From an uncultured Eubacteriales bacterium (lineage in GTDB: Bacteria > Bacillota_I > Bacilli_A > RFN20 > CAG-288), in NCBI GenBank assembly GCA_900316035.1, contig ONBI01000007.1, positions 988 through 64,987 of the forward strand: a DNA stretch of 64,000 bases, written 5' to 3'. The position numbers and the translations under genes are program-made. A model generated the notes under the pieces. That model saw only the letters and a program-made list of their open reading frames with translations, made no database searches and was not told the origin of the DNA. The stretch's first letter is position 1. Every line of letters starts with the position of its first letter. Shown here piece by piece: positions 8,042-46,223 of the stretch.

Positions 8042-9028
8042 ATGAACGAACAAGACCATACAGAAAAAATCACCTTTGGAAACATCTGCTTACGACTCCT
8101 TCAGGGCCTGCTTTTAGGTTTCACCTGCGGAGTTCCTCTTTTCAATACGAACGCCTTAAAAGAAACCCTAGGTTTCCGTAAAGAAAGAGAATTAGCGGAA
8201 AGCAAGACAATCCAGGATCGTCTTCTTTTCTTGTTGACGCATCGTCTAAGCTATCTTATAGGAGCTTTGGTTGGATTTTTCCTTTTCTTCTATGTTCCGG
8301 TTTCGATGCTCAAAGAGAATTATGCAACCGCCGTCTATGCCGCTATCGGTTCCATGAGTTTAGGTTTCTGTGTTCTGGAAGGATACCGTTTCTTCCGCGC
8401 AAGAAAGAACACTACCAGTTATATTCGTTCTGCGATTCTCTTCTTTGTCGTCTTCATCGGATTCCTTCTCTGCACCATGTTTATCAAAGAACCTACCGAA
8501 CTGACCGGCGGAAAAGTAGCTCTGGCTTTCTTCTTATTCCTCGTTGCCAGTTTCCTTCTCTGTTTTACCGGATTCAGCATCGGAACAATCTTCTATTTCT
8601 TCAATAACTATGTTCTCTATTCTTCCGCTTTGAATACGTTCCTTTATAAACACACAAACGTCTCCTTATTTGTCGTCACTTTCTTAGGAATTGCTCTCGG
8701 TTATGTCGGGTATCAATTCTTCGACCATTTCTTTGTTCAACATAAAAAGCGGGTTTTAGGAAGATACTCGTTAGCTGCCGAAAAACACGCCCTTGGTTTT
8801 GCTTTCACATTGACCAGTGTCTTCGTTTCTTTCCTCTTTAAAATGCATGCTCCTTATTATTCCAATGTCACCACGCAGTACGTTCAGCTCATCACCATCC
8901 TCACCTGTGCTTTTGCAGGTCTCTTTGTCTCTATCGGTCTTACGATCCACGGTTATCGTAGACTCAATAGAGAGGATTACCGTGAAATGAATTCTCTTCC
9001 TCTTCCGAAAGGTAGCAACAAGCGATGA
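8042..9028 (+). CDS. polytopic membrane protein (DUF368-like?), unknown function
   Basis: 328-aa multi-TM protein whose stop overlaps the start of the downstream pseudouridine synthase gene. Confidence 0.45.
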   Translation: MNEQDHTEKITFGNICLRLLQGLLLGFTCGVPLFNTNALKETLGFRKERELAESKTIQDRLLFLLTHRLSYLIGALVGFFLFFYVPVSMLKENYATAVYAAIGSMSLGFCVLEGYRFFRARKNTTSYIRSAILFFVVFIGFLLCTMFIKEPTELTGGKVALAFFLFLVASFLLCFTGFSIGTIFYFFNNYVLYSSALNTFLYKHTNVSLFVVTFLGIALGYVGYQFFDHFFVQHKKRVLGRYSLAAEKHALGFAFTLTSVFVSFLFKMHAPYYSNVTTQYVQLITILTCAFAGLFVSIGLTIHGYRRLNREDYREMNSLPLPKGSNKR

Positions 9029-21799: not shown

Positions 21800-21838
21800 T
21801 TCTTTCCTTCCAATCTCCGTTTCCTATGGTATAATTTA

Positions 21839-21926
21839 GCCACCATCGCGACAGTTCTCGTCGAACCTGGTCAGGACCGGAAGGTAGCAGCCATAAGATT
21901 GAGTTTCTGTGTGCGGTGGCTTTTTT
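21839..21926 (+). ncRNA. ffs: signal recognition particle RNA, small (4.5S-type) form
   Basis: Extended -10 TGgTATAAT at 21827-21835. Terminal helix GCCACC…GGTGGC. Conserved domain-IV motif GGTCAGGACCGGAAGGTAGCAGCC. Ends in a T6 run. Confidence 0.85.
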
Positions 21927-21937
21927 AATCATTAGAT

Positions 21938-31904: not shown

Positions 31905-33224
31905 TTATTTACTTTGATTTGAGTCTTGGGGAACATTCAAGAGTACCCAAACTCCATTCTTCTTACTACCTTTCCTTTGAAGAATTCCCTGTTCCTTCAA
32001 GGAACGAAGGATACTACTGATATAACTCCTGGAAAAGTCCGTAATATCTTCCAAATCAGAAACCTTCGCGGTTGGATTATCCCGTAGTGCAACGGCCACC
32101 TTCTTTTCCGCCGGTTTTAAAAGGGATTCCTTTGCATCCGCTGTTTCTTGATTATCTTCTTTTGTGAAAGGAATCGTGACGTTTATGTAGTTGTCCATGA
32201 TATCGAAGGCTTGTTTCCCATAGTTGCTAATAATCAAAGGAATACCATGACCTGTCTGTTCCACATAGCCTAACTGAGCAAAGATTTTCTGCAACTTAAA
32301 GTTGATAGGACGACTGATACCTTTATAGAATTCATCCTTGGTTAAATCAGAAGGTAAGCCACCTGTAGAAATAATTTCGATGCGATCTGAGAAAATATAG
32401 ACTGCCGGAGGGTTTCCTTTGTCCCAGCGGGTATGGATGCAGGCATTCTGCCAAGCCTCTTTAAAACTTGCCATATCAAATAGCTTTTCTTCAATCCTTT
32501 GATTGTTGGTCATCGTAACCCGAGTGGTATTAATCGATGCCACATAGTTAGTTACCATTTCCATGGACTGAATCAAGCAGGTTCCACCATATTCGTTGCG
32601 ACTAACAAGAGAGGTCTTATCTTTACCGGCAAACGTGACTACTTTTATCGAGACATCATTGACATCCGCCAAAAGGTAAGCCATCAAGTTGTATTTTCCC
32701 GTCTCGTTTTTCAAACCCATATTCGTCTCAAATGTAAAAGGATTTACCGTCAAACCAGCATTAGTAAAGTACATCTTCAACTTATTGAAAGTGAGCCCCT
32801 GAACTGGGGAATCAAGATGAGTCAGAACATCAGAAGAAACCGATCGACTAAGCAATTCCTTCAAAGCGGATGGCGATAACTCACGATCTTCATCCGCAGA
32901 CCGCATATAGTAACGACCAAATGCAGAATATGGGAAATCATTTCCTCTGACTTCGATTCGAATAACATTTTTATCATCTAATAACTTCAACTCAATGGTA
33001 GGAATGACTTGTGGCTTAATATTATTGGCAATAGCTTGAGAAATTTCTCTTAGCGTCCTATCACCAATCTGTTGACCGATGACATCACCATCATTTTTAA
33101 TGCCAAAATAGAGAACACCATAAGCATTTTTATTCAGCATAGAAGATAAAGAAACCAATCCTTCTTTTAGTTCGCTGGTAGATTTCTTGAATTCAATCTG
33201 TTCTGTCTCTGTTCCTAAGTTCAT
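31905..33224 (-). CDS. Schlafen-like AlbA_2 / HATPase_c_4 / C-terminal wHTH protein (COG2865-type putative regulator or defence protein)
   Basis: The N-terminal divergent AAA/AlbA_2 domain (EQIEFKKSTSELKEGLVSLSSMLNKNAYGVLYFGIKNDGDVIG) is followed by a RecG-C-like ATPase-like domain and a terminal HTH (SYISSILRSLKEQGIL). AT-rich codon usage compared with its neighbours. Confidence 0.65.
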   Translation of the reverse strand: MNLGTETEQIEFKKSTSELKEGLVSLSSMLNKNAYGVLYFGIKNDGDVIGQQIGDRTLREISQAIANNIKPQVIPTIELKLLDDKNVIRIEVRGNDFPYSAFGRYYMRSADEDRELSPSALKELLSRSVSSDVLTHLDSPVQGLTFNKLKMYFTNAGLTVNPFTFETNMGLKNETGKYNLMAYLLADVNDVSIKVVTFAGKDKTSLVSRNEYGGTCLIQSMEMVTNYVASINTTRVTMTNNQRIEEKLFDMASFKEAWQNACIHTRWDKGNPPAVYIFSDRIEIISTGGLPSDLTKDEFYKGISRPINFKLQKIFAQLGYVEQTGHGIPLIISNYGKQAFDIMDNYINVTIPFTKEDNQETADAKESLLKPAEKKVAVALRDNPTAKVSDLEDITDFSRSYISSILRSLKEQGILQRKGSKKNGVWVLLNVPQDSNQSK

Positions 33225-33279
33225 TTTACCGTCTCCTCTCTTCTAAGCCCTATAAAGAGTTTAGCACAAATTCTTTTTA

Positions 33280-33418
33280 AGTCCACTTTATAGTACACTT
33301 TTTAGTACTATTAGTCCACTTTATAGTACACTATAGGCCAAAAATAAAGAAAACGAAAAGCAAAAAATCCCATAATTACGTGGCTTTTTCATTTTTTGCC
33401 GTCTACTTTATAGTACAC
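33280..33418. repeat. three direct copies of 18-bp motif GTCCACTTTATAGTACAC (33280-33297, 33314-33331, 33401-33418; third copy 1 mismatch)
   Basis: Read directly in the sequence. Located in the 297-bp spacer between the ATPase gene stop and the AlbA_2 gene start. The copy nearest the start overlaps a TATAAA -10-like element on the minus strand. Confidence 0.8.
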
Positions 33419-33521
33419 TAGTTCGGATACGAACAGTGGATAATAAAGACTTTAAGAGGATGACGTCAGTGTCATATTTTTAACCCAAATCGTTTTGAGC
33501 CAAACGCTTTTGCGTAACCAA

Positions 33522-34916
33522 TTACTTCCCTTCGCACGCATAAAAATCTTCTAACGAGTAGCCGAGTTTATTTTTCTGTTGAAAGCTCTCCGTAAACCCT
33601 GTCTTAGAAATATACCCAAGCCGATAGAAAGGAAGCAGAGAAGAACCGGTTTGACTCTCTTCTTCTTTGGCTACCTCTTCACCAATAGGTTCTTTTCTAT
33701 ATTTGCATTCGTAAGAAGTAAAACCTGTTTTATCTTTCGTTACAACATCGAATGGAAGGTTTACACGATTCGTTTTGTCATTATAGGAATAGGTTCCGAT
33801 TTGATAAAAAGGAGGTTTGATCTTTCCTTCCCTGTTCTTTCGAATGAGGAATTCTTTGGAGACCTCTTCAAAAAGTAGAGGAAGATATTGCGTCTCTAAA
33901 TCCTCTTTAATCACTTCCCTGAAATAGTTTTCCGGTCCCATCAGATCTCGCGAAGCAAAAGAAGAAAGAATATAGCGGTAATAGAAATGCAGCAGATTAT
34001 CTTGGAACGAATAGAAAGTCAGCTTTCGATTATCCGGTTCATTGATTGGGGTAACTTTCGTTAAGATACCAAGCCCAACCCCTTTCTCTAACGCATACTC
34101 GGGTCGAGCATCTTTTCCTAAGACAGAAAGAATGTCGCTGAACTTTCTTTTGCCTCTGCCGATTAAAGCAAGTACCGAGTTAAGTCCCTCGACTTTGCTG
34201 ACTTCCGCATTTACGGTCTCTTTGACAAAAAGATCAAGAATGCTGTCCGGTCTGCAATACAAGCGGATAATATTCTCTTCGACACTCTTCTTCGGATCAC
34301 AAAGAGAAAGAGCATAGGGTAGACCAGAGAAGCAAGCATAGGCTTTGAATTTCTCTTCCGCGGAATAATCTGGGAAGAACAAGGAAGCATCGTAATAATC
34401 AAATTCTTTTATCTTCAGCGCCTGATCGAATCTTCCGTGTAAGGGACGATTTTTCTCAATCATCTTCTCTAACATATCGACATAACTGCCGGAGACAATC
34501 AGTTTCAGATGGCATTGGGTATTTCGATATTTATCGATGACTTTCGCTAGGCTTGCATCCGCTCCGTCTTCTCCTCCTAAAGGAAGATAAGAGAACTCAT
34601 CTAAGACCAAGACGATCTTCTGTTTCATCGCCTGGGAAAAGACCGCTTCAAAAGCTTCCTCTAAGTTTGAGAAATGAACATAGCTCGGAAGAGAAAGCTT
34701 CTCCTTGATAAGGTTTTCTAGCGCTCTTATATTCAAAGGCAAAACAACTTCCTTTGCTTCAAAAGGAAGAAGAAGCCCATCAATTTTCTTAGTTGCTTCC
34801 TTGATCAACTCACTTTTTCCGACTCGTCTTCTTCCATAGATGAGACAGGCTTTGAAGTCATCTCCTTCCAATAGTTCCGAAAGGATTCCCAGTTCTTCTT
34901 TTCTTCCGACAAACAT
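33522..34916 (-). CDS. AAA+ ATPase of the Arch_ATPase/DUF234 family (COG1672-type)
   Basis: Walker A YGRRRVGKSEL, Walker B LVLDEF, with a DUF234-like C-terminal half. AT-rich. Confidence 0.65.
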   Translation of the reverse strand: MFVGRKEELGILSELLEGDDFKACLIYGRRRVGKSELIKEATKKIDGLLLPFEAKEVVLPLNIRALENLIKEKLSLPSYVHFSNLEEAFEAVFSQAMKQKIVLVLDEFSYLPLGGEDGADASLAKVIDKYRNTQCHLKLIVSGSYVDMLEKMIEKNRPLHGRFDQALKIKEFDYYDASLFFPDYSAEEKFKAYACFSGLPYALSLCDPKKSVEENIIRLYCRPDSILDLFVKETVNAEVSKVEGLNSVLALIGRGKRKFSDILSVLGKDARPEYALEKGVGLGILTKVTPINEPDNRKLTFYSFQDNLLHFYYRYILSSFASRDLMGPENYFREVIKEDLETQYLPLLFEEVSKEFLIRKNREGKIKPPFYQIGTYSYNDKTNRVNLPFDVVTKDKTGFTSYECKYRKEPIGEEVAKEEESQTGSSLLPFYRLGYISKTGFTESFQQKNKLGYSLEDFYACEGK

Positions 34917-37635: not shown

Positions 37636-38688
37636 CTACTCTTTTTCTTTCTTGGCAAGATACTCCGCAAGAGCATCCGGAAGATAGCGGGGGCCTCTTA
37701 CCGCCGTAACACCATACTTCTTCATCACTTTTCGGAAAGTGCAGAAATAAGGATCATAGCGATCCGTGATATGCATCGCCACTTCTTTTCTTCCCTCGTT
37801 GAAATCTAAGTTTGTTTCCGTGATGACAGCACGATACAAAATCGCGTGGAAAGGAAAACTGACATAGACATAGACCGCATCCCCGACTTCCATGTTTTTG
37901 CTCTGCCACCAATAAACATCATCCGTATATTGCCATTCACGGTAAATATCGTAAGTATCCAAATTGGCAGGAACTAACCAATTCTTCTTTCCGGTTGGAG
38001 AATTTTTGGCTTTTCTTAATACTAATTCCTTGGATTTTTCGACCAAAGCAAGTATCTCTTCATCCGCTACTTCATCATCCAGAATCACCGAAATCCAGTT
38101 CTTATGGCTCATATGATAAGCCGTTCGGATTCCTTTTTTCTGAATCAGAGTCGGAATTTCACTTTCTTCTGCTTTAAGATTCAGAACTTCGATGTCGTTC
38201 TCTTTTCCCTCCGGCCGAATCTTTTTCTCCGGTACACGGAGAATCAACGCAAACCATTTCTCCCTCTTCGGAAGACGGAAACAGGCATCGTCTTTATCGT
38301 CGGAAAAAGGATAATCCCAAGGAGTCTGATATTTTTCTTTCAACAGAAGAGCAATGCGATTTGTCTGTGGAAGCAGAAAAGGAAGAGAAGTAAAGCAGTG
38401 ATCGGCAATATCCTGAAGCAGGGCACGGAGCTCTTCTTTCACTTCATAGATGAATTCACCTCTGGCTGCTTCTAATCGGATCGGAAGATATTCTTCTCCT
38501 GTCAGAGGATCCAGTACCTGTGCTAAAACCTCGTTTGTCTTTTTATAGGCTCTAATCTTCACCTGAAAAGAGCCATGCTTTAGGGTTGTTTCAAAAAGAT
38601 AATCTTTCTCTTCTTCCTGAAAGCCATAAGCAAGCAGTTTCTTCACATCCGGTATCTTCTTCTGAAAAATAGTATCCTCTGGTTCCAT
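37636..38688 (-). CDS. MmcQ/YjbR-family DNA-binding domain fused to C-terminal PUA-like (EVE/ASCH-type) domain
   Basis: The central region has a YjbR-like motif (WDYPFSDDKDDACFRLPKREKWFALIL). The C-terminal ~120 aa have a PUA-like beta-barrel signature (NWLVPANLDTYDIY…VGDAVYVYVSFPFHAILYRAVI). Confidence 0.45.
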   Translation of the reverse strand: MEPEDTIFQKKIPDVKKLLAYGFQEEEKDYLFETTLKHGSFQVKIRAYKKTNEVLAQVLDPLTGEEYLPIRLEAARGEFIYEVKEELRALLQDIADHCFTSLPFLLPQTNRIALLLKEKYQTPWDYPFSDDKDDACFRLPKREKWFALILRVPEKKIRPEGKENDIEVLNLKAEESEIPTLIQKKGIRTAYHMSHKNWISVILDDEVADEEILALVEKSKELVLRKAKNSPTGKKNWLVPANLDTYDIYREWQYTDDVYWWQSKNMEVGDAVYVYVSFPFHAILYRAVITETNLDFNEGRKEVAMHITDRYDPYFCTFRKVMKKYGVTAVRGPRYLPDALAEYLAKKEKE

Positions 38689-38783
38689 GATAAATTCAGC
38701 TTATAGAGTTAGCCTATTTCCGTCAAGAAAAAAACTGCCAGAAGGAAACATCCTCCCAGCAGTTAAAAAATCTGTTAATCGGA

Positions 38784-39179
38784 TCAGAGCTTAGGAACAT
38801 GAAGAGTTCCGTCTTTATCCGGATGAGACTTCATGTACTCGATGATTGGATCGTAGTTCTTAGCTTTATTGCCAGGCTTACAATCCGAGAGATGCTCCTG
38901 CTTACCAGCGACGATGGCTTCCGCCATATCATGGCAACCTGCGTGACCGCAGGCACCGCAGTTGAAGTTCGGTAAGAGCTTCTCAACTTCGGCGATACGC
39001 TTATCCTCTTCGACATAGAAAGCTTTCTCGGCGACAAGGATAAGAATTGCCATCAAAAGACCGATTACCATCAGAATACCGGTTGCAACCAGCATGACTA
39101 ACCAAAGATTGCTGTACCAAGGGGTCGCTTCGGCTGCTGCTTCGGTCTCCTCCGCTAACAGATAAGAGAATGCGTTCAT
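38784..39179 (-). CDS. rnfB: Rnf complex subunit B, minimal form (N-terminal TM + single Cys cluster, no ferredoxin domains)
   Basis: TM helix plus a CGACGHAGC…C…PG motif matching the RnfB N-terminal [4Fe-4S] domain. No CxxCxxCxxxCP ferredoxin repeats. 131 aa. Confidence 0.6.
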   Translation of the reverse strand: MNAFSYLLAEETEAAAEATPWYSNLWLVMLVATGILMVIGLLMAILILVAEKAFYVEEDKRIAEVEKLLPNFNCGACGHAGCHDMAEAIVAGKQEHLSDCKPGNKAKNYDPIIEYMKSHPDKDGTLHVPKL

Positions 39180-39460
39180 TCTTTCTTTTCCTCCTCGGAA
39201 GAAGATTTCTTACTTTCTTCCGCTTCTTTCTTCTCCTTCTCGTATTCCATCTTCGCCTGTTCTTCCGGGGTGTTGTAATACATATTGAAGTGACATCCTA
39301 GAATCCCACAGCCGTGGCATTTCGCCTCGCTCGGTTTTTCTAAATCTTCACAGCCTTTCGGTACCGGTGTCTTACGGTAGAGAATATATGAAACAAGGAA
39401 GATGATTAAGAAGAGAACAATGACACCGATCGCAAGTAGCCATCGTGCCCAAGTCGGCAT
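39176..39460 (-). CDS. RnfB-N-like mini-protein (TM + CX12CHGCGILGC motif)
   Basis: 94 aa with a TM helix, then C…CHGCGxxGC as in the RnfB N-terminal domain, and an acidic/lysine-rich tail. Sits between rnfA and rnfB with a start/stop overlap. Confidence 0.5.
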   Translation of the reverse strand: MPTWARWLLAIGVIVLFLIIFLVSYILYRKTPVPKGCEDLEKPSEAKCHGCGILGCHFNMYYNTPEEQAKMEYEKEKKEAEESKKSSSEEEKKE

Positions 39461-39469
39461 TTCCGTTCC

Positions 39470-40084
39470 TTACTTGACCGAGACCATGCCGGAGAAGCCG
39501 ACAAAGGCCATCGACATGATAGCAGCGATAATCAGAGCAAGAGCAACACCCTTGAAGGCTTTCGGGCTTTTATATTCGCTGACGCGGATACGGATGAACG
39601 AGAAGATGACGATGACAATGAGATAACCTAAGGAAGTACCGATAGCGTTAGCCATAGAGGCACCGAAGCTAAGACCGGAATCGGTGTTACCCTGGACAAC
39701 ACCTAAGACGGCGCAGTTGGTAGTGATCAGAGGAAGATAGATACCGAAGCCACGATACAGAGCCGGACTATACTTCTTGATGAAGAGACCGACAATCTGA
39801 ACTAACGAAGCAATGACGAGAATATAGGTAAGAGTATCCATGAAAGGAATCTGAAGAGGTTTCAGAATATAGGTGTAAATCGGCCAGCAGACAAGAGCAG
39901 CCATGATGATGACGAAGCTGACCGCGACACCCATTGAGAAAGCACTCTTCGGCTTATCACCGACACCGATGAAGGAGCAGATGCCGTAGAAACGGGAGAG
40001 GATGACGTTATCGATGAGCATCGAAGAGACAATAGCAAGAAGGAAAGCAACAATATAAGGTAAAGTTGTATCTGCGATTTCCAT
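39470..40084 (-). CDS. rnfA: Rnf complex subunit A
   Basis: NqrE/RnfA-family 6-TM protein (DNVILSRFYGICSFIGV). Confidence 0.8.
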   Translation of the reverse strand: MEIADTTLPYIVAFLLAIVSSMLIDNVILSRFYGICSFIGVGDKPKSAFSMGVAVSFVIIMAALVCWPIYTYILKPLQIPFMDTLTYILVIASLVQIVGLFIKKYSPALYRGFGIYLPLITTNCAVLGVVQGNTDSGLSFGASMANAIGTSLGYLIVIVIFSFIRIRVSEYKSPKAFKGVALALIIAAIMSMAFVGFSGMVSVK

Positions 40085-40086
40085 AA

Positions 40087-40962
40087 TTACTTAGTCTCCT
40101 TGTTTTCCTGACTCTGCTGAGCAGGGGATTTAGGCGGATTGATCTGCTGCGTAGTCGTATCGACTTTCTTCTCGGCCGGAGAACCGGTCGAAGCAGAAGC
40201 GGTAGCAACTGCCGGTTTAGCGGCAGCCGCTTCCTTCGCCGCTAAAGCTTTCTGCATTTCGATACGGGCTAAGGCTTTCTTCTTGGCGTTGTTGTGGTTT
40301 TCGACTGCCATGATGACGGCTAAGCATAAGCCCATCACGACGAAGCCACCGGCCGGCTGAGAGAAGAAGGACATAGCGAAGTTCCACTTACCATTCGGAT
40401 CGGCTAAGATCGGTAAGTGCGTAAGCGGGATGAAAGTGAAGACCGAACCGAAAGTGATATAACCGACACCTAAGATTTCACGGATGATACCGATGAGGGA
40501 GATAGCTAAGGTATAACCGATACCGTTTCCGCAGGCATCCAGTAAAGAATCTAAGACCGTGTTCTTACTGGCAAAGGCTTCCGCTCTTCCTAAGACGATG
40601 CAGTTGACAACGAGTAAGGAAAGGAAGACGCCTAAGCCGGTATAAAGTTCCGGAAGGAAGGCTTCGGTAAGCATCTTCGTAATCGTGACGAAAGCCGCGA
40701 TAACGACGATATAGCAAGGAGTCTTGATAACTTCAGGAACCAGCTTACGGATAGCGGAGATGATGACGTTCGAGCAGATAAGAACGAAGGTGAAGAGAAG
40801 ACCCATACCGAAGGACTGCTCGAAGCTGATGGTGACGGCAAGAGCCGGGCAGGTTCCTAAGACTGCGACGAAGAGAGGATTGTTCTTAATGATACCGGCA
40901 ACAAAGCTCTCATAATGCTTCGACGGAGCTTTGGTTTCCGCTGTTTTGACATTTTCTGCCAT
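40087..40962 (-). CDS. rnfE: Rnf complex subunit E (with ~70-aa Ala/Lys/Pro-rich C-terminal extension)
   Basis: NqrD/RnfE signature (NNPLFVAVLGTCPALAVT). Confidence 0.8.
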   Translation of the reverse strand: MAENVKTAETKAPSKHYESFVAGIIKNNPLFVAVLGTCPALAVTISFEQSFGMGLLFTFVLICSNVIISAIRKLVPEVIKTPCYIVVIAAFVTITKMLTEAFLPELYTGLGVFLSLLVVNCIVLGRAEAFASKNTVLDSLLDACGNGIGYTLAISLIGIIREILGVGYITFGSVFTFIPLTHLPILADPNGKWNFAMSFFSQPAGGFVVMGLCLAVIMAVENHNNAKKKALARIEMQKALAAKEAAAAKPAVATASASTGSPAEKKVDTTTQQINPPKSPAQQSQENKETK

Positions 40963-40968
40963 TTTCGT

Positions 40969-42051
40969 TTATCTCCTTTCCGAAGCAAAAGAGTAGGTGA
41001 AAGAAGGATTCTTCGCTTCTGCTACCGAGGTAAATCCGGTCGTGACTACGGAAGAAGCAGTGACCTTTTTGTTCTTGACTGCATCAATAGCCTGCTTAAT
41101 CAAAGCCTTTATTGCGTAACAAGAATGAGAGTTTGTCTCACCCACTTTGACAAAGTTACTCTCGTCGGCGTAGGCCGCATCCTTATCGGAGCTAGCATTG
41201 ATAGCCTTGATATAAGGATTGAGATCCAATCCATCATAGGTGTTGCCATCATAGGCAAGATAAACACCGGCAAGTTTACCATCCGAAGTGACTGCAATAT
41301 AGAGAGTCTCGAAAAAGGCTTCCTCCGAATCATCGGTATAGGTGCTATAGAAGATAAAGCCCTTAGAACATTTCCAAAGATGCTCAATTACGGCATTGCT
41401 CGTATTCAGATCCGCAGGTACTTCCATCTCAGTATATTCCTGATCCGTTCCGAAGAGCTTTCCTTCGTCCGCCATGACAAAGGCAGTGCTCTGACCTTTC
41501 GCAACTTTACCCGCTTCGGTGACGGCATCACGGATCAAAGAAGCGGCAAAAGTAGCACCGCATTTGACATTCTGAAGAGCGGCTTCCTTATCCGCGCCAT
41601 CGGCGGCTGCGTTATAAGGATCGACATAACCAGGTTCGAGCTTTCCTTTATAGGACATCGTATCGGAGATCATGACAAGCTTGGTTAAAGAATAATCCTT
41701 GCCTTTGAAACCGATGAGGAAATCGACATCGCCGTATCCGTTTTTACCATAGCAACGGCAGATGGTTCCGACAAAGTCCTTCTTATCCTCATCCGAATAG
41801 ACATCCCAGACTTTGGTGACGTATTTGATGTCTTTCTTTGTATCGTCATCTAAGGTACGTTCGGCATAGGTATTCTTGACCTCGGTATCGCCGAAGACTT
41901 CCGCTAAGGATTTATTCTGTTTACGAACATTGTTCTCTGCGATAACCGGAGCGGTGACGGCATTGACAGCACCGACAAGAAGAGTCGAACCACCGGCGAT
42001 GATCAATAAGGTCAAAGCCGTCTTGATGAAGTTTTTCGTGAAATCTTTCAT
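40969..42051 (-). CDS. rnfG: Rnf complex subunit G (FMN-binding), long form
   Basis: N-terminal TM and FMN_bind region (…KCGATFAASLI…). ATG at 42049-42051 lies behind GGAGG. The track start 42087 would overlap rnfD. Confidence 0.7.
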   Translation of the reverse strand: MKDFTKNFIKTALTLLIIAGGSTLLVGAVNAVTAPVIAENNVRKQNKSLAEVFGDTEVKNTYAERTLDDDTKKDIKYVTKVWDVYSDEDKKDFVGTICRCYGKNGYGDVDFLIGFKGKDYSLTKLVMISDTMSYKGKLEPGYVDPYNAAADGADKEAALQNVKCGATFAASLIRDAVTEAGKVAKGQSTAFVMADEGKLFGTDQEYTEMEVPADLNTSNAVIEHLWKCSKGFIFYSTYTDDSEEAFFETLYIAVTSDGKLAGVYLAYDGNTYDGLDLNPYIKAINASSDKDAAYADESNFVKVGETNSHSCYAIKALIKQAIDAVKNKKVTASSVVTTGFTSVAEAKNPSFTYSFASERR

Positions 42052-42052
42052 G

Positions 42053-43207
42053 TCAGAAAACCTCCACACATAAAGCCCAGAGTTCAATCAGAGCGAAGAC
42101 AACAAAGACAGCAATGGGCCAAACGATATTCTTCCAATTCCACTTATTCGTAGACCACTTCGGATAATCGATAATGGAAGTAAGCATATTGCCAATAAGA
42201 ATAGAATAGACGCAGCCTTCCGGAATCGCCGCGAAGAGACGGATGAACGTAGTGCAGATAGCAAGGATGATACCGAACATGACTCTACCCGGATGCGTGA
42301 TCGGGGAAGTGACCGGATCGGTCGCCATATAGACCGCATTGAACATAACACCGCCGGAGAGAAGCTCATAAAGAGCAAAAGTCCAAGGATCATCAATCTT
42401 ATAACCGAACCAGAGAACGAAACCGGCAATCAGCATCATGACGAAGAAGGCTCCTAAATAGGCAAGCGGAATTCTCCAGTCGATGGTATGACGGACGATG
42501 AGATAGATAAGGCCGACTAAGATGAGAAGTTTGCAGGCTTCACCGATTCCTCCAGGAACATTGCCTAAGAAGAGATCGAGAAGGCTATAAGTTCCTAACT
42601 GGATGGAGGTTCCACCGTTACCGGCGATAGCGATATGTTCCGAGCCAAGCGGAGTAGCACCGGCATCGACGATGGTCGCACCATTCGGATTGAAGGCATC
42701 GAAGTATTGGAAGTGAGAACCATAGCAGGTCTTAGCAAAGACGAATCCGACGGCAGCAGGGTTGAAAATGTTGGTTCCGGTTCCGCCGAAGACGAGCTTA
42801 CCGATGATGATACCGAATAACGCCGAAGTGATTAAGGAAACATAGAGAAGAGCTTCGTTATCCATGTTGGTCGGCATCAATAAAGCGAGAATGATAGCCG
42901 AGACAAGCGGGACTAAGGCGTTAGAAAGGTGATACGCTTTGCATCCGTTGAGGAACTGTTCCTTGAACGTATGCTTCGTACCATCCACTGGGAGACGGTT
43001 GGTGACAAGAACGAAGACGAACTCGGATAATTCCATGACCGCGGCGATAATGAAAAGGTTACGAGCCATCGCGACCGGGAAAACAACAAAACCATAAATA
43101 ACTAACGGCAAAAGAGCAATGATGACATCGAGCATCATGCCGACAAGATTGTCCTTGCGACGGATGTGCGGTGCGGACTCTTTGATAATCGTAGTTTTCA
43201 GTTCCAT
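42053..43207 (-). CDS. rnfD: Rnf complex subunit D
   Basis: NqrB/RnfD-family polytopic protein. Confidence 0.8.
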   Translation of the reverse strand: MELKTTIIKESAPHIRRKDNLVGMMLDVIIALLPLVIYGFVVFPVAMARNLFIIAAVMELSEFVFVLVTNRLPVDGTKHTFKEQFLNGCKAYHLSNALVPLVSAIILALLMPTNMDNEALLYVSLITSALFGIIIGKLVFGGTGTNIFNPAAVGFVFAKTCYGSHFQYFDAFNPNGATIVDAGATPLGSEHIAIAGNGGTSIQLGTYSLLDLFLGNVPGGIGEACKLLILVGLIYLIVRHTIDWRIPLAYLGAFFVMMLIAGFVLWFGYKIDDPWTFALYELLSGGVMFNAVYMATDPVTSPITHPGRVMFGIILAICTTFIRLFAAIPEGCVYSILIGNMLTSIIDYPKWSTNKWNWKNIVWPIAVFVVFALIELWALCVEVF

Positions 43208-43208
43208 A

Positions 43209-44477
43209 TTATTTCAGCCTCGCAATGACTTTCGCTCTGCGGACATAATCCGTGACGTTGATGTTCGAAGTGCAGGAGTAGGCGCAAAGTCCGCATTCGA
43301 TGCACTTGAGCGGATTGAGCATCTTGACCTTCGCCTTATCAACCGGCATATGCTTCATCGCGTTCATGATATCGACCGGAAGAAGTCCGTCTAAGTAGTT
43401 ACGCTTGTTGATGACAATGACCGAGGTGACGGTCTTAGTGAGAATGCAGTCATCCGAAGGAAGCGAAGCTCCCATCATCGGACCGCCGAGGATGAAGGTC
43501 TTCGGCTTATCCGGATCCTTGTAGCCACCGCATTTCTCGATGAGATACTTAACCGGAGTACCGACACGGACAAAGAAATCAGAAGGTTTGACGATACCAT
43601 CGCCGGTGACGGTGACTCTTCTCTGATAGACCGGCATATTCTCTCGCAAGGCTAAACGAATACCTAAAAGAGTCGAGGCGTTGATAACCATGACCCCGTA
43701 GTCGGCCGGACGTTTGCCGGGTTCGACATGGATCTTCGTTGCCTGTTCGACAAGTCTATTTTCCCAACCCATCGGATAAACATTCGGAACTTCAAAATAG
43801 GAAATACCATCATGAGGTTCCTTGGCGAAAAGCTTCTCGTAAGTCGCTTCGATATCCTTATACTTCTTCTTGAAGCAGAGGCGGACATCGTTGACACCGA
43901 AGATGTGTTTGACCAGTTTCATACCATCTAAGATATGATCCGGTTCTTCCATCAGGGCTCGGTGATCCGCGTTGATGTACGGTTCACATTCAACGCCATC
44001 GATCAAGACCGTGTTGATCTTGGTCTTCGTCTGGAACTTGACGTAAGTCGGGAAGGAGGATCCTCCTAAACCGACCGAAGCGCAGTTCTTGAGAATCTCG
44101 ACGACCTGATCTCGGGTCAAGGCATCGATTTCCTCCTGACTTCTCGGCTTGATTCCTTCATAAAGAGCATCCTTGAAATCGTTGTGGATCTTCATGAAAG
44201 AGACGACCTTTCCGGAACGATGATAATGCTTTTCATAACCTTCAAACGTTCCCGAACAGGTCGCATGGATTGGCTGATCGAAGAATCCGCCATGACGGAC
44301 ACCGATCGGCTGACCGAGCTTCACATAGTCGCCTTCGTGGATAAAGACCTCCGCCTTCGGGCAGCGGGCATTATCCGTCGTGATGAGGAGATACTCCGGA
44401 ACAGGCACAATGAGTTCTTCACGCTCAATGTGGGAAAGCTTCAGGGCATCCTCAAGCGCTCTCGTTTTTTTGATCAT
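43209..44477 (-). CDS. rnfC: Rnf complex subunit C (NADH-binding, 2x[4Fe-4S])
   Basis: RnfC N-terminal domain and a C-terminal ferredoxin motif (CIECGLCAYSC). Confidence 0.85.
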   Translation of the reverse strand: MIKKTRALEDALKLSHIEREELIVPVPEYLLITTDNARCPKAEVFIHEGDYVKLGQPIGVRHGGFFDQPIHATCSGTFEGYEKHYHRSGKVVSFMKIHNDFKDALYEGIKPRSQEEIDALTRDQVVEILKNCASVGLGGSSFPTYVKFQTKTKINTVLIDGVECEPYINADHRALMEEPDHILDGMKLVKHIFGVNDVRLCFKKKYKDIEATYEKLFAKEPHDGISYFEVPNVYPMGWENRLVEQATKIHVEPGKRPADYGVMVINASTLLGIRLALRENMPVYQRRVTVTGDGIVKPSDFFVRVGTPVKYLIEKCGGYKDPDKPKTFILGGPMMGASLPSDDCILTKTVTSVIVINKRNYLDGLLPVDIMNAMKHMPVDKAKVKMLNPLKCIECGLCAYSCTSNINVTDYVRRAKVIARLK

Positions 44478-44738
44478 TGGTAATACCTCAACAGGTTTGT
44501 ATTATAGCAAGGTAAAGTGGAATAAGAAAGAAAACATATATACCTATTAATAATATAGGTAAAGCTAGAATTGCGCATTTTGCGCTAATTAAATAAAAGA
44601 AGGAAAGACTATTGGGCACTCAACCGCTCATATTCGTTCTGATTGCACAAGAAAGAAAGGAGCCAAACGGGCAAATGACAAATTCGAAGAGAATGTGTGA
44701 TTTTTCTCTTTTTTTGAAAGAGGAGCCTTTCTTCGTCT

Positions 44739-46223
44739 TTAGGCTTTCGGTTTAAAAGCTCTGGTCGCTTTGACCGCCTCTAACCATCCGGCATAAAGAC
44801 GTTCCATCTCCGCTTTTTCCATCTGCGGGACGAAACGTTTCGCAATCGCGTGGTTCTTTTCAACATCCTCTTTGCTCGTCCAGAAACCACAACCTAAACC
44901 GGCGAGATAACCAGCTCCCATCGCGGTTGTCTCAACGCATTCCGGAATCACGACTTCGCACTGAAGAATATCCGCCTGGAACTGCATCAGAAGATTATTG
45001 GCGCTGGCTCCGCCATCGACCTTCAAGGTCTTCAGTTCAAAGTGTCCTTCTCTCTTCATCGCTTCAATGACATCCTTGGATTGATAAGCGATAGAGAAGA
45101 GAGTGGCACGGACAAAGTTATGGCGGTCGGCACCACGGGTAAGACCGAAGACGGCACCTCTTGCTTCATCATCCCAGTACGGTGTTCCTAAACCGACGAA
45201 AGCAGGAACGACATAAACACCGGCCGTATCGGAAACACGGTTTGCATACTCTTCGCTCTGGGCGCTTGTCTTGATCAGAGCCATCTGATCTCTTAACCAC
45301 TGGATGATGGCACCGCCCATAAAGACAGAGCCTTCTAAGGCATAGGTCGTTTGTCCGTTTTCACGCCAGGCAACCGTAGTTAACAATCCTTGCTTTGAAA
45401 TAAAAGGTTTATTTCCGACATTCATCAGCATGAAGCAACCGGTGCCATAGGTGTTCTTTGAGTCACCAGGCTTGAAGCAACACTGACCGAAAAGAGCGGC
45501 CTGCTGATCACCGGCAACACCATGAATATGGACGTTTTCCGGGAAAAAGGAAGCTACACCGAAGTCGGCCGAATTGTCTTTGACTTCCGGAAGCATGGAA
45601 GCTGGGATATTCCAGATTTTCAGTAACTCCGGATCCCAATCCATCTTGAAGATGTTGTAAAGCATCGTTCTGGATGCATTCGAAACATCGGTCGCATGGA
45701 CTTTGCCATAGGTCATCTTGTAGATGAGCCATGAGTCAATCGTTCCGAAAAGGAGTTCCCCTCTTTCGGCTCTTGCCTGTCCATCCGGAATATGATCGAG
45801 GATGAAACGGATCTTCGAAGCCGAGAAGTAAGGATTCATTCTTAAACCGGTCTTCTGTTGAATCAGATCCGTATAACCTTTTCTTTCTTCGCAGAGATCC
45901 AGCGTCTGTTTCGATTGCCAGACGATAGCGTTATAGACCGCCTGTCCGGTGTTCTTATCCCAGACGACGGTGGTCTCTCTTTGGTTGGTGATACCGATAG
46001 CAGCGATCTCATCGAAATTGGACGAAGAGACAACCATCAGTTCGTTGATGACATCGATAACCGAAATCCAGACCTGATTCGGAACAACTTCCACCCAACC
46101 CGGATGAGGGAAAAGACAGTTGACTTCTCTCTGTGCTTTATAGACTTCCTGACCTTCATGATTGATGAGGATGGCTCTGGTTGAAGTCGTTCCCTGATCA
46201 ATGGCGAGAATGTATTTCTTCAT
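44739..46223 (-). CDS. glpK: glycerol kinase
   Basis: MKKYILAIDQGTTSTRAIL, FGGY kinase family, 494 aa. Confidence 0.92.
   Translation of the reverse strand: MKKYILAIDQGTTSTRAILINHEGQEVYKAQREVNCLFPHPGWVEVVPNQVWISVIDVINELMVVSSSNFDEIAAIGITNQRETTVVWDKNTGQAVYNAIVWQSKQTLDLCEERKGYTDLIQQKTGLRMNPYFSASKIRFILDHIPDGQARAERGELLFGTIDSWLIYKMTYGKVHATDVSNASRTMLYNIFKMDWDPELLKIWNIPASMLPEVKDNSADFGVASFFPENVHIHGVAGDQQAALFGQCCFKPGDSKNTYGTGCFMLMNVGNKPFISKQGLLTTVAWRENGQTTYALEGSVFMGGAIIQWLRDQMALIKTSAQSEEYANRVSDTAGVYVVPAFVGLGTPYWDDEARGAVFGLTRGADRHNFVRATLFSIAYQSKDVIEAMKREGHFELKTLKVDGGASANNLLMQFQADILQCEVVIPECVETTAMGAGYLAGLGCGFWTSKEDVEKNHAIAKRFVPQMEKAEMERLYAGWLEAVKATRAFKPKA

What the first reader, a model, noticed from the sequence alone, without database searches (positions are those of the whole stretch)
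38784..44477. Rnf operon with minimal RnfB lacking ferredoxin domains plus an extra RnfB-N-like mini-protein; extended RnfG and RnfE
The rnfCDGEA genes are canonical, but the last gene encodes only the ~130-aa N-terminal TM/[4Fe-4S] (CGACGHAGC) module of RnfB. It has none of the polyferredoxin CxxCxxCxxxCP domains thought to accept electrons from ferredoxin. A second 94-aa protein with the same TM + CHGCGxxGC motif is inserted between rnfA and rnfB. RnfG is about twice the usual length, and RnfE carries a long A/K/P-rich tail. This raises the question of what the cytoplasmic electron donor/acceptor interface of this complex is.
Basis: partly seen in the sequence, partly recalled or inferred. 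Interest (0 to 1): 0.55.

Follow-up and report, generated by a model that had tools for sequence, protein, structure and literature searches.

The report
Stripped-down Rnf complex with extra cysteine mini-protein
This rumen bacterium, like a whole branch of mycoplasma-like Bacilli, encodes an Rnf redox pump whose ferredoxin-accepting subunit RnfB is cut down to a single iron-sulfur module and is paired with a small, unnamed four-cysteine membrane protein, a layout outside the RnfB range described in a 2025 review and in the Mollicute genome papers I could search.

Summary
A tight seven-gene minus-strand operon (44477-38784) encodes RnfC, D, G, E, A, a 94-aa protein and a 131-aa RnfB, with its own promoter-like site and a strong terminator.

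- **RnfB:** it has only a membrane helix plus the PF04060 single-[4Fe-4S] domain and no ferredoxin motifs. It is not a frameshift. 49 related loci (Acholeplasmatales, Izemoplasma-like, Anaeroplasma, Erysipelotrichaceae, uncultured gut and rumen Bacilli) have a 76-135-aa RnfB, and these form one clade.
- **Mini-protein:** 46 of those 49 loci also carry the mini-protein (membrane helix plus four invariant Cys) between rnfA and rnfB. None of 32 canonical loci does. It is probably a truncated RnfB-N paralogue. Its resemblance to NqrM is architectural only.
- **RnfG:** its extra length is a tandem copy of its flavin-binding domain, and copy number varies between close relatives.
- **RnfE:** its tail is a basic low-complexity extension.
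- **RnfC:** this is not canonical in the window. A 45-nt in-frame deletion removes the first [4Fe-4S] motif. The deletion is absent from the three otherwise 100%-identical public assemblies that cover the site.

Most likely this is a clade-typical, streamlined ferredoxin/flavodoxin:NAD+ Rnf in which the donor docks directly on the single-cluster RnfB. That mechanism is inferred, not shown. I rate it a new variant of a known kind, of moderate interest.

The parts
44501..44509 (-). Promoter-like extended -10 (TGcTATAAT) upstream of rnfC. A GAGG ribosome-binding site lies at 44489-44486.
   Evidence: Read directly from the sequence. No riboswitch or other Rfam family lies in the leader.
43209..44477 (-). 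rnfC (422 aa): RnfC_N, Complex1_51K (FMN/NADH) and SLBB domains, but only ONE CxxCxxCxxxC motif.
   Evidence: Pfam and NCBIfam hits. Aligns to A. woodii, A. vinelandii and C. tetanomorphum RnfC at E 1e-45 to 1e-50. Motif count is 1, against 2 in all 60+ full-length relatives.
43389..43390 (-). Junction of a 45-nt in-frame deletion in rnfC. It removes E-E-P-C-I-R-C-G-S-C-V-A-S-C-P-V, the whole first [4Fe-4S] motif.
   Evidence: The window is 100.000% identical to L089, L091 and L092 on both sides of this point, and those carry 45 extra nt and a 437-aa RnfC. The sister species L085 also has the motif. The 422-aa product is not on record anywhere.
42053..43207 (-). rnfD (384 aa), with the flavinylation-type motif D-A-G-A-T-P-L.
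   Evidence: PF03116, E 1e-69. Aligned to 7zc6_D, where 'ATPL' is conserved.
40969..42051 (-). rnfG (360 aa from ATG; 372 aa from the upstream TTG at 42087). It has a membrane anchor, FMN-binding-type domain 1 (aa 39-187, motif V-K-C-G-A-T), a duplicated domain 2 (aa 209-329, degenerate motif V-G-E-T) and a ~30-aa tail.
   Evidence: TIGR01947 rnfG, E 8.9e-10, N-terminal part only. No Pfam or PDB sequence hit. A clade-specific HMM finds two domains, i-E 1.8e-30 and 3e-5. The CGAT motif is conserved across the clade.
40087..40962 (-). rnfE (291 aa). The core (aa 18-220) carries both cluster-ligating Cys (LGTCPALAV, VVNCIVLGR). A ~70-aa A/K/P-rich tail (aa 222-291, nt 40299-40090) has net charge +6.
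   Evidence: PF02508, E 5e-58. Alignment to 9eri_E. The tail is conserved in the sister species L085. Charge computed. RnfE lengths in the clade vary from 212 to 306 aa.
39470..40084 (-). rnfA (204 aa) with both cluster-ligating Cys (RFYGICSFIG, ITTNCAVLG).
   Evidence: PF02508, E 6.6e-50. Alignment to 9eri_A.
39176..39460 (-). Mini-protein (94 aa): membrane helix (aa 3-30), conserved P34-x-G36-C37-E38 ... C48-x-x-C51-x4-C56 (nt 39361-39293), and a charged helical tail. Its stop codon overlaps the rnfB start (ATGA).
   Evidence: No Pfam or NCBIfam family. P34, C37, C48, C51 and C56 are invariant in 35- and 52-sequence alignments. It is present in the same position in 46 of 49 short-RnfB loci (41 by phmmer, 5 by eye) and in 0 of 32 canonical loci. 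There are 401 cluster representatives, and the best 150 listed are all 51-98 aa. AF2 predicts the membrane helix confidently and the Cys region at low confidence.
38784..39179 (-). Minimal rnfB (131 aa): acidic N-terminal peptide, membrane helix (aa 25-53), PF04060 [4Fe-4S] domain (aa 69-102, nt 38975-38874; Cys 74, 77, 82, 100), basic loop C-K-P-G-N-K-A-K-N, and a conserved helix/tail P-I-I-E-Y-M-x-x-H-P-D-x-D-G.
   Evidence: PF04060, E 4.8e-12. Aligns only to residues 1-78 of RnfB chains 9eri_B, 7zc6_B and 8ahx_B. All 51 homologues are 96-133 aa and carry PF04060 only. The family alignment has 4 invariant Cys. AF2 mean pLDDT is 73.6, and the top (weak) fold match is the CFeSP [4Fe-4S] domain.
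38733..38764 (-). Intrinsic terminator (14-bp stem plus T-run) ending the operon.

Best explanation
The locus encodes the streamlined Rnf complex typical of one clade of Bacilli: the Erysipelotrichaceae, Acholeplasma, Anaeroplasma and Izemoplasma-like lineages plus uncultured gut and rumen relatives.

**Shown**
- The membrane core (RnfD, RnfG, RnfE, RnfA) keeps every cofactor ligand: two Cys each in RnfA and RnfE for the intramembrane [2Fe-2S], and the flavinylation threonines in RnfD and in RnfG domain 1.
- RnfC keeps its NADH/FMN module.
- RnfB has lost the whole C-terminal ferredoxin-like domain. It retains only the membrane helix and the small, flexibly tethered PF04060 [4Fe-4S] domain, which in solved Rnf structures delivers electrons to RnfA/E.
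- A small membrane-anchored protein with four invariant cysteines is encoded immediately upstream of rnfB. Its stop codon overlaps the rnfB start.

**Inferred**
- The complex still works as a reversible low-potential donor (ferredoxin or flavodoxin):NAD+ oxidoreductase and ion pump.
- The soluble donor docks directly on the exposed single-cluster RnfB domain. A clade-specific lysine-rich loop next to the fourth Cys ligand may help, and so may the basic RnfE tail.
- The mini-protein is a truncated tandem paralogue of the RnfB N-module. It binds a metal or Fe-S centre at the cytoplasmic membrane face and acts as an accessory subunit, either a second relay or docking cluster or a stabiliser.

**Other features**
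- The longer RnfG is a tandem duplication of its extracytoplasmic flavin-binding domain. In this window the copy has a degenerate flavinylation motif.
- The rnfC deletion is private to this sequence. If it is real it should disable electron transfer to NAD+ in this strain. It is not part of the clade design.
For: - **Operon anatomy and domain calls:**
- **RnfB matches only the N-terminal ~78 residues of solved RnfBs:**
- **All 51 close homologues are 96-133 aa and carry PF04060 only:**
- **Clade-wide layout:** 49 short-RnfB loci with 0 ferredoxin motifs, against 32 canonical loci with 20-28 Cys. The mini-protein co-occurs in 46 of 49 and in 0 of 32.
- **Single origin:** the short RnfBs are monophyletic.
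- **Core cofactor ligands conserved:**
- **Mini-protein:** invariant P34 and four Cys. hhalign against the RnfB N-module gives probability 89.9% and E 1.7e-6, with CxxCxxxxC in register, and 1 of 100 column-permuted controls reaches that score. One family member hits TIGR01944 rnfB at E 0.0044.
- **Basic loop after the fourth Cys:** mean net charge +2.0 (n=49) against -0.6 in canonical RnfB (n=32).
- **Fold:** PF04060 is the fold of the CFeSP [4Fe-4S] domain. From my own knowledge, that domain takes electrons from soluble low-potential donors.
- **Ferredoxin-linked metabolism in the clade:** PFOR and [FeFe] hydrogenases are reported for Peloplasma (PMC11122141) and for RF39/RFN20 (bioRxiv 10.1101/2020.01.21.914887), and [FeFe]-hydrogenase genes for Izemoplasma (PMC8397711). 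Two short-RnfB loci carry a 55-60-aa 2x[4Fe-4S] ferredoxin within 7 kb.
- **Role of the small domain:** the 2025 review (PMC12174285) describes it as the shuttle to RnfA/E.
Against: - No activity, cofactor or expression data exist for any member.
- Donor identity and direct docking are inference.
- The co-occurrence of short RnfB, mini-protein and basic loop reflects one evolutionary event. It is therefore not independent evidence of functional coupling.
- Three short-RnfB loci lack the mini-protein (L036, L043, L049), so it is not strictly required.
- The mini-protein does not hit PF04060, and its fourth Cys lies upstream of the CxxC motif rather than downstream. Paralogy with RnfB is only moderately supported.
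- AF2 gives no confident fold for its Cys region.
- I could not search whole genomes for a separately encoded polyferredoxin or for ApbE. None is in the 64-kb window.
- In this particular window RnfC lacks a cluster motif, so this copy may be non-functional.
Confidence: 0.5

Rival explanations
1. The mini-protein is not a redox subunit. It is an NqrM-like maturation factor that delivers iron or Fe-S to build the intramembrane [2Fe-2S] cluster between RnfA and RnfE, as NqrM is proposed to do for NqrD/E in Na+-NQR.
For: - The architecture matches NqrM: one N-terminal membrane helix, a short basic linker, G-(S)-C, then about 10 residues and a three-Cys knot. NqrM is C33-x11-C45-x-C47-x3-C51. The mini-protein is C37-x(7-10)-C48-x2-C51-x(2-7)-C56.
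- hhalign gives probability 72.7% and E 3.2e-5, with three of the four Cys in register.
- In relatives the gene lies within two genes of apbE, the other maturation factor. In Vibrio, nqrM follows apbE (PMC6209661, PMC12174285).
- 14 of 35 family members give weak hits to PF12669, 'FeoB-associated Cys-rich membrane protein'.
Against: - PF04400 (NqrM) is not among the 25 families listed for the 35 members.
- 7 of 100 column-permuted controls reach the observed hhalign score, so most of the score comes from the membrane helix and composition.
- The match to the RnfB N-module is stronger.
- Canonical Rnf operons manage without such a factor (0 of 32 loci).
- The stop/start overlap with rnfB suggests stoichiometric co-production.
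Confidence: 0.2
2. The missing ferredoxin-accepting domain is supplied in trans. A separately encoded polyferredoxin or partner enzyme (for example PFOR or a hydrogenase subunit) elsewhere in the genome docks on RnfB-min and the mini-protein, making a split RnfB.
For: - The small RnfB domain normally receives electrons from the C-terminal polyferredoxin domain (PMC12174285).
- Only about 20 kb per locus could be inspected, and whole genomes were not searchable.
- Two short-RnfB loci have a small ferredoxin about 6.5 kb away.
Against: - No ORF with a CxxCxxCxxxC[P/T/S/A/G] motif is conserved within +/-10 kb of any of the 49 short-RnfB operons.
- The conserved neighbours are apbE, NusG_II and Hpre_diP_synt_I, which are not redox carriers.
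- There is no such gene in the 64-kb window.
Confidence: 0.15
3. In this clade Rnf has been repurposed away from ferredoxin. It mainly moves electrons between NADH (via RnfC) and extracytoplasmic acceptors through the expanded flavin domains of RnfG, and the RnfB branch is reduced because it matters less.
For: - Extracytoplasmic FMN-binding-type domains are repeatedly amplified in the clade: 2-4 domains in RnfG, or a second RnfG-like gene in Acholeplasmataceae and Izemoplasma-like loci.
- Multi-flavinylated RnfGs were proposed to feed alternative extracytosolic acceptors (PMC8238504).
- Many members are wall-less or monoderm.
Against: - The four Cys of RnfB-min and the RnfA/E cluster ligands are invariant, so that branch is under selection.
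- Most clade members have a single-domain RnfG.
- The extra domain in the window has a degenerate flavinylation motif (VGET).
- No extracellular reductase or cytochrome is linked to the operon.
Confidence: 0.12
4. The short RnfB and the mini-protein are artefacts: a frameshifted or truncated rnfB, or a decaying pseudo-operon.
For: The rnfC copy in this window does carry a disabling-looking 45-nt deletion.
Against: - The seven-gene layout, with intact ORFs, is found in dozens of independent assemblies and 49 species-level loci.
- The functional residues are invariant.
- A terminator lies directly after rnfB.
- Fusing the mini-protein and RnfB would give a protein with two membrane helices, not a normal RnfB.
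- The rnfC deletion is absent from the three otherwise identical assemblies that cover the site.
Confidence: 0.02

Closest known systems
Canonical RnfB of solved Rnf complexes (A. woodii 9eri_B, 333 aa; C. tetanomorphum 7zc6_B, 274 aa; A. vinelandii 8ahx_B, 174 aa)
   Same: N-terminal membrane helix followed by the small PF04060 domain with C-G-x-C-G-x-x-G-C ... C. It is encoded in an rnfCDGEAB-type operon.
   Different: The protein ends about 30 residues after the fourth Cys, so the C-terminal domain is missing. According to the 2025 review (PMC12174285), that domain carries 2-7 [4Fe-4S] clusters and accepts ferredoxin. The short form also has a clade-specific basic loop (CKPGKKDKN) and a PIIEYM..HPD.DG tail.
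NqrM (PF04400), maturation factor of Na+-NQR
   Same: A stand-alone protein of about 70 aa with one membrane helix and four conserved Cys in a similar spacing. It is encoded in the operon of an RNF/NQR-type pump, near apbE.
   Different: There is no HMM-level match. The hhalign score is barely above the permuted controls (7 of 100). The middle motif is CxxC rather than CxC, and the association is with rnf rather than nqr.
N-terminal [4Fe-4S] domain of the corrinoid iron-sulfur protein (CFeSP, 2ycl_A), also PF04060
   Same: Same Pfam family. It is the top, though weak, structural match of the RnfB-min model. It is a single-cluster domain on a flexible tether that receives electrons from soluble low-potential donors (my own knowledge).
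   Different: It is soluble and part of a corrinoid protein, and it has nothing to do with ion pumping. The Foldseek E-value is only 0.66.
Multi-flavinylated RnfG proteins (Meheust et al. 2021, eLife, PMC8238504)
   Same: RnfG with tandem extracytoplasmic FMN-binding-type domains. The sister species has GGAT and TGAT motifs in its extra domains.
   Different: In the window the extra domain has VGET in place of the [S/T]GA[T/S] site. Pfam FMN_bind does not reach threshold on any domain. Copy number differs between near-identical strains and species: 2, 3 or 4 domains.
RnfH, the cofactor-less accessory subunit of A. vinelandii Rnf1 (PMC12174285)
   Same: It is a precedent for a lineage-specific small extra subunit in an Rnf complex.
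   Different: RnfH has no cofactor and is unrelated in sequence and architecture.

Membership tests
Rnf complex (RnfCDGEAB ion-translocating ferredoxin:NAD+ oxidoreductase) | Homologues of all six subunits in one operon | tested here: met
   Pfam and NCBIfam hits for C, D, E, A and B. G hits only TIGR01947, at E 8.9e-10, below its cutoff. The gene order C-D-G-E-A-(mini)-B is as in Firmicutes.
Rnf complex (RnfCDGEAB ion-translocating ferredoxin:NAD+ oxidoreductase) | Two Cys each in RnfA and RnfE for the intramembrane [2Fe-2S] | tested here: met
   GICSF and TTNCAVLG in RnfA; LGTCPAL and VVNCIVLG in RnfE. These align to 9eri_A and 9eri_E.
Rnf complex (RnfCDGEAB ion-translocating ferredoxin:NAD+ oxidoreductase) | Flavinylation threonines in RnfD and RnfG ([S/T]GAT-type motif) | tested here: met
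   RnfD has DAGATPL. RnfG domain 1 has VKCGAT, with Cys in place of Ser/Thr at -3, and this is conserved across the clade. Actual flavinylation was not tested. There is no apbE in the window, but apbE is adjacent in relatives.
Rnf complex (RnfCDGEAB ion-translocating ferredoxin:NAD+ oxidoreductase) | RnfC with an NADH/FMN domain plus two [4Fe-4S] motifs | tested here: not met
   The NADH/FMN domain is present, but the window has only one CxxCxxCxxxC motif because of the 45-nt deletion. The feature is met in the identical public assemblies L089, L091 and L092, where RnfC is 437 aa.
Rnf complex (RnfCDGEAB ion-translocating ferredoxin:NAD+ oxidoreductase) | RnfB with a membrane helix, a small [4Fe-4S] domain AND a C-terminal ferredoxin-like domain with at least 2 clusters | tested here: not met
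   The membrane helix and PF04060 domain are present. There is no C-terminal domain, there are 4 Cys in total and no ferredoxin motifs.
Rnf complex (RnfCDGEAB ion-translocating ferredoxin:NAD+ oxidoreductase) | Ferredoxin:NAD+ oxidoreductase activity coupled to Na+/H+ transport | not testable with these tools
   Needs biochemistry.
NqrM (PF04400) | Match to the family HMM | tested here: not met
   PF04400 is not among the families listed for the window protein or among the 25 (of 51) families listed for the 35 members at E up to 10.
NqrM (PF04400) | Single membrane helix plus four conserved Cys; profile-profile similarity | tested here: inconclusive
   The architecture matches. hhalign probability is 72.7%, but 7 of 100 permuted controls reach the score.
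NqrM (PF04400) | Required for maturation of the pump | not testable with these tools
   Needs genetics and biochemistry.
RnfB N-terminal module (paralogy of the mini-protein) | Membrane helix plus CxxCxxxxC aligned with RnfB CGxCGxxGC; PF04060 hit | tested here: inconclusive
   hhalign probability 89.9% and E 1.7e-6, and 1 of 100 permuted controls reaches the score. One of 35 members hits TIGR01944 at E 0.0044. There is no PF04060 hit, and the fourth Cys sits on the opposite side of the motif.
Multi-flavinylated RnfG | At least 2 FMN-binding-type domains, each with a flavinylation motif | tested here: inconclusive
   Two domains are found, but the second has VGET in the window. The sister species L085 has GGAT and TGAT in its domains 3 and 4.

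The most novel reading that the evidence does not exclude
The clade uses a new two-piece input module for Rnf. It consists of two separately membrane-tethered single-centre proteins (RnfB-min and its truncated paralogue, the mini-protein) that together replace the polyferredoxin domain. If so, the small PF04060 shuttle domain is the only part of RnfB essential for coupling. A soluble donor, which may not be a classical ferredoxin, would reduce it directly at the membrane surface. The same small protein could also be an evolutionary link to NqrM-type factors of Na+-NQR.
Probability: 0.3. Interest if true: 0.7.

Novelty: new variant of a known kind. Interest (0 to 1): 0.5.

Why it matters
- **Physiology.** Rnf is a central energy-conserving pump of anaerobes. 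Current structural models assign ferredoxin binding to the C-terminal polyferredoxin domain of RnfB, described as holding 2-7 clusters. A large natural group of Rnf complexes lacks that domain entirely yet keeps every other cofactor site. That makes it directly testable whether the domain is needed at all, and what the small shuttle domain can do alone.
- **Structure.** These complexes are also the smallest Rnf versions seen here. With less flexible mass they may suit structural work.
- **Unannotated protein.** The unnamed four-Cys mini-protein has 401 cluster representatives. It is a candidate new Rnf subunit or the first Rnf-specific maturation factor.
- **Annotation and metabolic models.** Genome papers on Acholeplasma, Izemoplasma and Peloplasma describe these operons as ordinary Rnf/rnfCDGEAB. 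NCBI's pipeline names this RnfB '(Fe-S)-binding protein' and names RnfG and the mini-protein 'hypothetical'. Metabolic models of gut and rumen RF39-like and Erysipelotrichaceae bacteria therefore rest on an untested enzyme.

Tried and rejected
- **Frameshift or truncation of rnfB: rejected.** There is a terminator directly after the stop codon, the layout is conserved, and identical sequence appears in independent assemblies.
- **Split RnfB with an adjacent polyferredoxin: not found.** No such ORF lies within +/-10 kb of the 49 short-RnfB loci.
- **NqrM homology: demoted to analogy.** I retrieved real NqrM sequences and compared profiles. The score is only weakly above permuted controls.
- **Known families for the mini-protein: none.** Pfam and NCBIfam scans of 35 members gave only weak hits to PF12669 FeoB_associated. 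An exhaustive profile search returned only short stand-alone proteins and no fusion that would hint at function.
- **AF2 of the mini-protein:** it gives a confident membrane helix only. I did not run a fold search on it for that reason.
- **AF2 plus Foldseek of RnfB-min:** only a weak match, to the CFeSP cluster domain.
- **PDB sequence search with RnfG:** no hit.
- **Riboswitch or other RNA regulator upstream of rnfC:** none. The only Rfam hit in the window is SRP RNA.
- **Search for the rnfC deletion allele and the wild-type allele in JGI metagenome contigs:** neither was found, so this is uninformative.
- **Literature:** I found no paper describing a short RnfB or the mini-protein. Kostyrko et al. 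2016 on NqrM is not held.
- **ApbE, ferredoxin, flavodoxin or PFOR in the 64-kb window:** none. The context is housekeeping genes.

Full report
**1. What is in the sequence**

Window 44477-38784 (minus strand) holds seven tightly packed ORFs:
- rnfC, 422 aa
- rnfD, 384 aa
- rnfG, 372 aa from a TTG, or 360 aa from the ATG at 42051 that public gene calls use
- rnfE, 291 aa
- rnfA, 204 aa
- a 94-aa ORF, called the 'mini-protein' here
- rnfB, 131 aa

Gaps between genes are 1-9 nt. rnfD overlaps rnfG by one nt, and the mini-protein stop codon overlaps the rnfB start (ATGA). An extended -10 (TGcTATAAT, 44509-44501) and a GAGG ribosome-binding site precede rnfC. A 14-bp-stem intrinsic terminator (38764-38733) follows rnfB. 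There is no Rfam element in the leader.

Pfam and NCBIfam assign C, D, E, A and B to the Rnf families. RnfG reaches only TIGR01947 at E 8.9e-10, over its N-terminal part. The 94-aa protein matches nothing.

**2. The minimal RnfB is real**

RnfB hits only PF04060 (residues 69-102). It aligns with residues 1-78 of the solved RnfB chains of A. woodii, C. tetanomorphum and A. vinelandii and then simply ends. It has four Cys (74, 77, 82, 100) and no CxxCxxCxxxC motif. The downstream gene is a YjbR-family protein, separated from rnfB by the terminator, so no frameshift can rebuild a normal RnfB.

The window is 100.000% identical over tens of kb to independent public assemblies, for example ERZ931786 contig k127_29232. 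PRJEB21624, named in that record, is to my recollection a cow-rumen metagenome project. NCBI holds the same proteins from a MAG labelled 'Eubacteriales bacterium'. There, RnfB is named '(Fe-S)-binding protein', and both the mini-protein and RnfG are 'hypothetical'.

**3. It is a clade trait**

- All 51 close homologues of this RnfB are 96-133 aa and carry PF04060 only. The four Cys and a C-terminal tail (KN.DPIIEYM..HPD.DG) are conserved.
- A scan of one genome per GTDB species returned 80 loci. Together with four loci fetched earlier, 81 have a recognisable RnfB. Of these, 49 have an RnfB of 76-135 aa with no ferredoxin motif, and 32 have a canonical 260-463-aa RnfB with 20-28 Cys.
- The short form occurs in Acholeplasma and Acholeplasmataceae, 'Tenericutes bacterium MO-XQ', Anaeroplasmataceae, Ca. 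Onthovivens, Erysipelotrichaceae (Solobacterium, Bulleidia, Traorella) and many uncultured Bacilli.
- In a neighbour-joining tree of the shared N-terminal module, the 47 distinct short RnfBs form one clade that excludes all 32 canonical ones. There is no bootstrap, the alignment is short, and sampling is biased towards the query. A single ancestral loss is the simplest reading.
- A 2025 review states that the C-terminal RnfB domain carries 2-7 [4Fe-4S] clusters and is the ferredoxin acceptor, and that the small domain is a flexible shuttle to RnfA/E (PMC12174285).
- Genome papers on Acholeplasma, Izemoplasma and Peloplasma call these operons ordinary Rnf/rnfCDGEAB. In the Peloplasma paper the listed accession numbers skip exactly two genes inside the cluster. 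That fits an unrecognised mini-protein and a second RnfG-like gene.
- I found no paper that mentions the short RnfB.

**4. The mini-protein**

The same small ORF sits between rnfA and rnfB in 46 of the 49 short-RnfB loci (41 found by phmmer, 5 by eye). It is in none of the 32 canonical loci.

The family is 51-98 aa. It has one N-terminal membrane helix, then (K/R)-T-P-x-P-x-G-C-E, and 4-10 residues later C-x-x-C-x(2-7)-C. P34, C37, C48, C51 and C56 are invariant in 35- and 52-sequence alignments. An exhaustive profile search finds 401 cluster representatives, and the best 150 listed are all short stand-alone proteins. No Pfam or NCBIfam model covers it. 14 of 35 members weakly hit PF12669, 'FeoB-associated Cys-rich membrane protein'.

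*Comparison with the RnfB N-module.* Profile-profile comparison gives probability 89.9% and E 1.7e-6, with CxxCxxxxC in register.

*Comparison with NqrM.* I retrieved genuine NqrM proteins (alignment: membrane helix, then G-S-C33-G-G, x11, C45-x-C47-x3-C51). The comparison gives probability 72.7% with three of four Cys in register. NqrM against RnfB-min gives 6.8%.

*Control.* I permuted the post-helix columns of the target alignment 100 times. The RnfB match (37.5) stands well above the control (28.6 +/- 1.5; 1 of 100 reach it). The NqrM match (30.1) barely does (25.3 +/- 3.0; 7 of 100).

The NqrM resemblance is architectural. AF2 predicts the membrane helix confidently and leaves the Cys region unstructured, which is uninformative.

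**5. RnfG and RnfE**

A clade-specific HMM built from single-domain RnfGs finds two domains in the window protein: aa 39-187 (i-E 1.8e-30) and aa 209-329 (i-E 3e-5). It finds three in L086 and four in L085, the sister species.

Domain 1 carries D/N-x-x-C-G-A-T, the clade's version of the [S/T]GAT flavinylation site. The extra domain in the window has V-G-E-T, whereas L085 has GGAT and TGAT in its third and fourth domains. Other members reach about 480-510 aa. Acholeplasmataceae and Izemoplasma-like loci instead carry a second RnfG-like gene between rnfG and rnfE. This matches the 'multi-flavinylated RnfG' class already described (PMC8238504).

The RnfE tail (aa 222-291; A/K/P-rich; net charge +6) is conserved in the sister species. 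Across the clade it varies in length and is low in complexity. From the known topology of RnfE (my own knowledge) it should be cytoplasmic.

**6. The core is intact, except rnfC in this copy**

RnfA and RnfE keep the four Cys of the intramembrane [2Fe-2S], and RnfD keeps ...GATPL.

RnfC, however, has only one CxxCxxCxxxC motif. All 60+ full-length relatives have two. Comparison with L089, L091 and L092, which are 100% identical on both flanks, shows an exact 45-nt in-frame deletion at 43389|43390. It removes EEPCIRCGSCVASCPV. The sister species also has the motif, and the 422-aa product is not on record anywhere.

The deletion is therefore private to this sequence. It is either a rare variant or an artefact. 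If real it should break the RnfD-to-FMN electron path in RnfC (role of the clusters as given in PMC12174285). It is not part of the clade design. Searches for either allele in JGI metagenome contigs found nothing.

**7. How it most likely works**

*Shown:* the anatomy, its conservation, and the retained ligands.

*Inferred:* the complex remains a reversible low-potential-donor:NAD+ oxidoreductase. The tethered single-cluster RnfB domain is reduced directly by a soluble carrier instead of by its own polyferredoxin domain.

Supporting hints:
- The nine residues after the fourth Cys are basic in the short family (C-K-P-G-K-K-D-K-N; mean net charge +2.0, n=49) and neutral to acidic in canonical RnfB (-0.6, n=32). 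That would suit acidic ferredoxins or flavodoxins.
- PF04060 is also the electron-entry domain of CFeSP (weak fold match, plus my own knowledge).
- PFOR and/or [FeFe]-hydrogenase genes are reported in members of the clade.
- Two short-RnfB loci have a clostridial-type ferredoxin nearby.

All of these traits go back to one evolutionary event, so they are not independent. The mini-protein is most simply an accessory, metal-binding, membrane-tethered subunit derived from RnfB.

Rival readings remain open: an NqrM-like maturation factor, a polyferredoxin acting in trans, or a shift towards extracytoplasmic electron transfer through the amplified RnfG domains.

**8. Verdict**

This is a new variant of a known kind. 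The sequences are public, but I found no description of the variant. Interest is moderate (0.5). It offers a natural test of whether the RnfB polyferredoxin domain is needed, and it adds a candidate new Rnf component. No function has been demonstrated.

Noticed in passing
window 43389|43390 (within rnfC, minus strand): An exact 45-nt in-frame deletion removes the whole first CxxCxxCxxxCP motif of RnfC. Three public assemblies that cover the site and are otherwise 100% identical (L089, L091, L092) carry the 45 nt and a 437-aa RnfC. No microhomology is visible at the junction. It is either a rare variant or an artefact of this sequence.
   Followed up: yes
window 40969-42051; L085:6362-8209; L086:2359-3816: The number of FMN-binding-type domains in RnfG differs between very close relatives: 2 in the window, 3 in L086 and 4 in L085. 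Strain variants of 359, 360 and 364 aa also exist. RnfG and RnfB are much more diverged between the window and L085 than the 3' end of rnfC, which is nearly identical. This suggests fast evolution or recombination of the surface-exposed part.
   Followed up: partly
L013-L016, L018, L019, L035 (between rnfG and rnfE, about 7450-8540 in locus coordinates): Acholeplasmataceae and Izemoplasma-like operons carry a second RnfG-like gene (320-570 aa). It has its own membrane anchor and 2-4 FMN-binding-type domains, some with AGAT or SGAS motifs.
   Followed up: partly
window 44739-46223 (minus strand); L085:2148-3632; L003:3112-4599: Glycerol kinase (FGGY) lies directly upstream of rnfC on the same strand in the window, in the sister species and in a more distant relative. 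In the window, G3P dehydrogenase and an amine-oxidase-like flavoprotein follow further upstream. This may link glycerol redox balance to Rnf.
   Followed up: no
L036:16528-16695 and L049:16825-17007: Two of the three short-RnfB loci that lack the mini-protein (L036 and L049) each have a 55-60-aa 2x[4Fe-4S] clostridial-type ferredoxin about 6.5 kb downstream on the opposite strand. The numbers are too small to interpret.
   Followed up: no
window 31905-34916: Two genes lie here: SLFN_AlbA_2/HATPase_c_4 (439 aa) and ATPase_2/DUF234 (464 aa). They sit between the HAD gene and the TP_methylase gene in the window but are absent at that place in sister species L085. GC content drops to 0.385 at 32-34 kb. 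This looks like a small inserted island.
   Followed up: no
window 16394-17859 (minus strand): A gene for an AbiEii-type nucleotidyltransferase toxin-like protein (Pfam PF08843) lies next to a 193-aa partner ORF, likely a toxin-antitoxin or abortive-infection pair.
   Followed up: no
window 21835-21932 (+): Bacterial small SRP RNA (RF00169, 59.3 bits). It is the only Rfam family in the window.
   Followed up: no
window 61721-64000 and beyond (L095:13678-20388): Two adjacent ORFs of about 1,090 aa with no Pfam hit lie at the right edge of the window. The first runs off the end of the window.
   Followed up: no
window 43209-43300 (RnfC C-terminus) and relatives: The retained second cluster motif of RnfC ends in C-T-S rather than the usual C-P, in the window and in its nearer relatives (CIECGLCxYSCTS).
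   Followed up: no
L001/L003 10331-12355; window 37636-38688: In most relatives rnfB is followed by apbE, a NusG_II-domain gene and a Hpre_diP_synt_I-family gene. In the window and its sister species these are replaced by a YjbR-family gene and a DUF389 gene. No apbE lies anywhere in the 64-kb window.
   Followed up: partly
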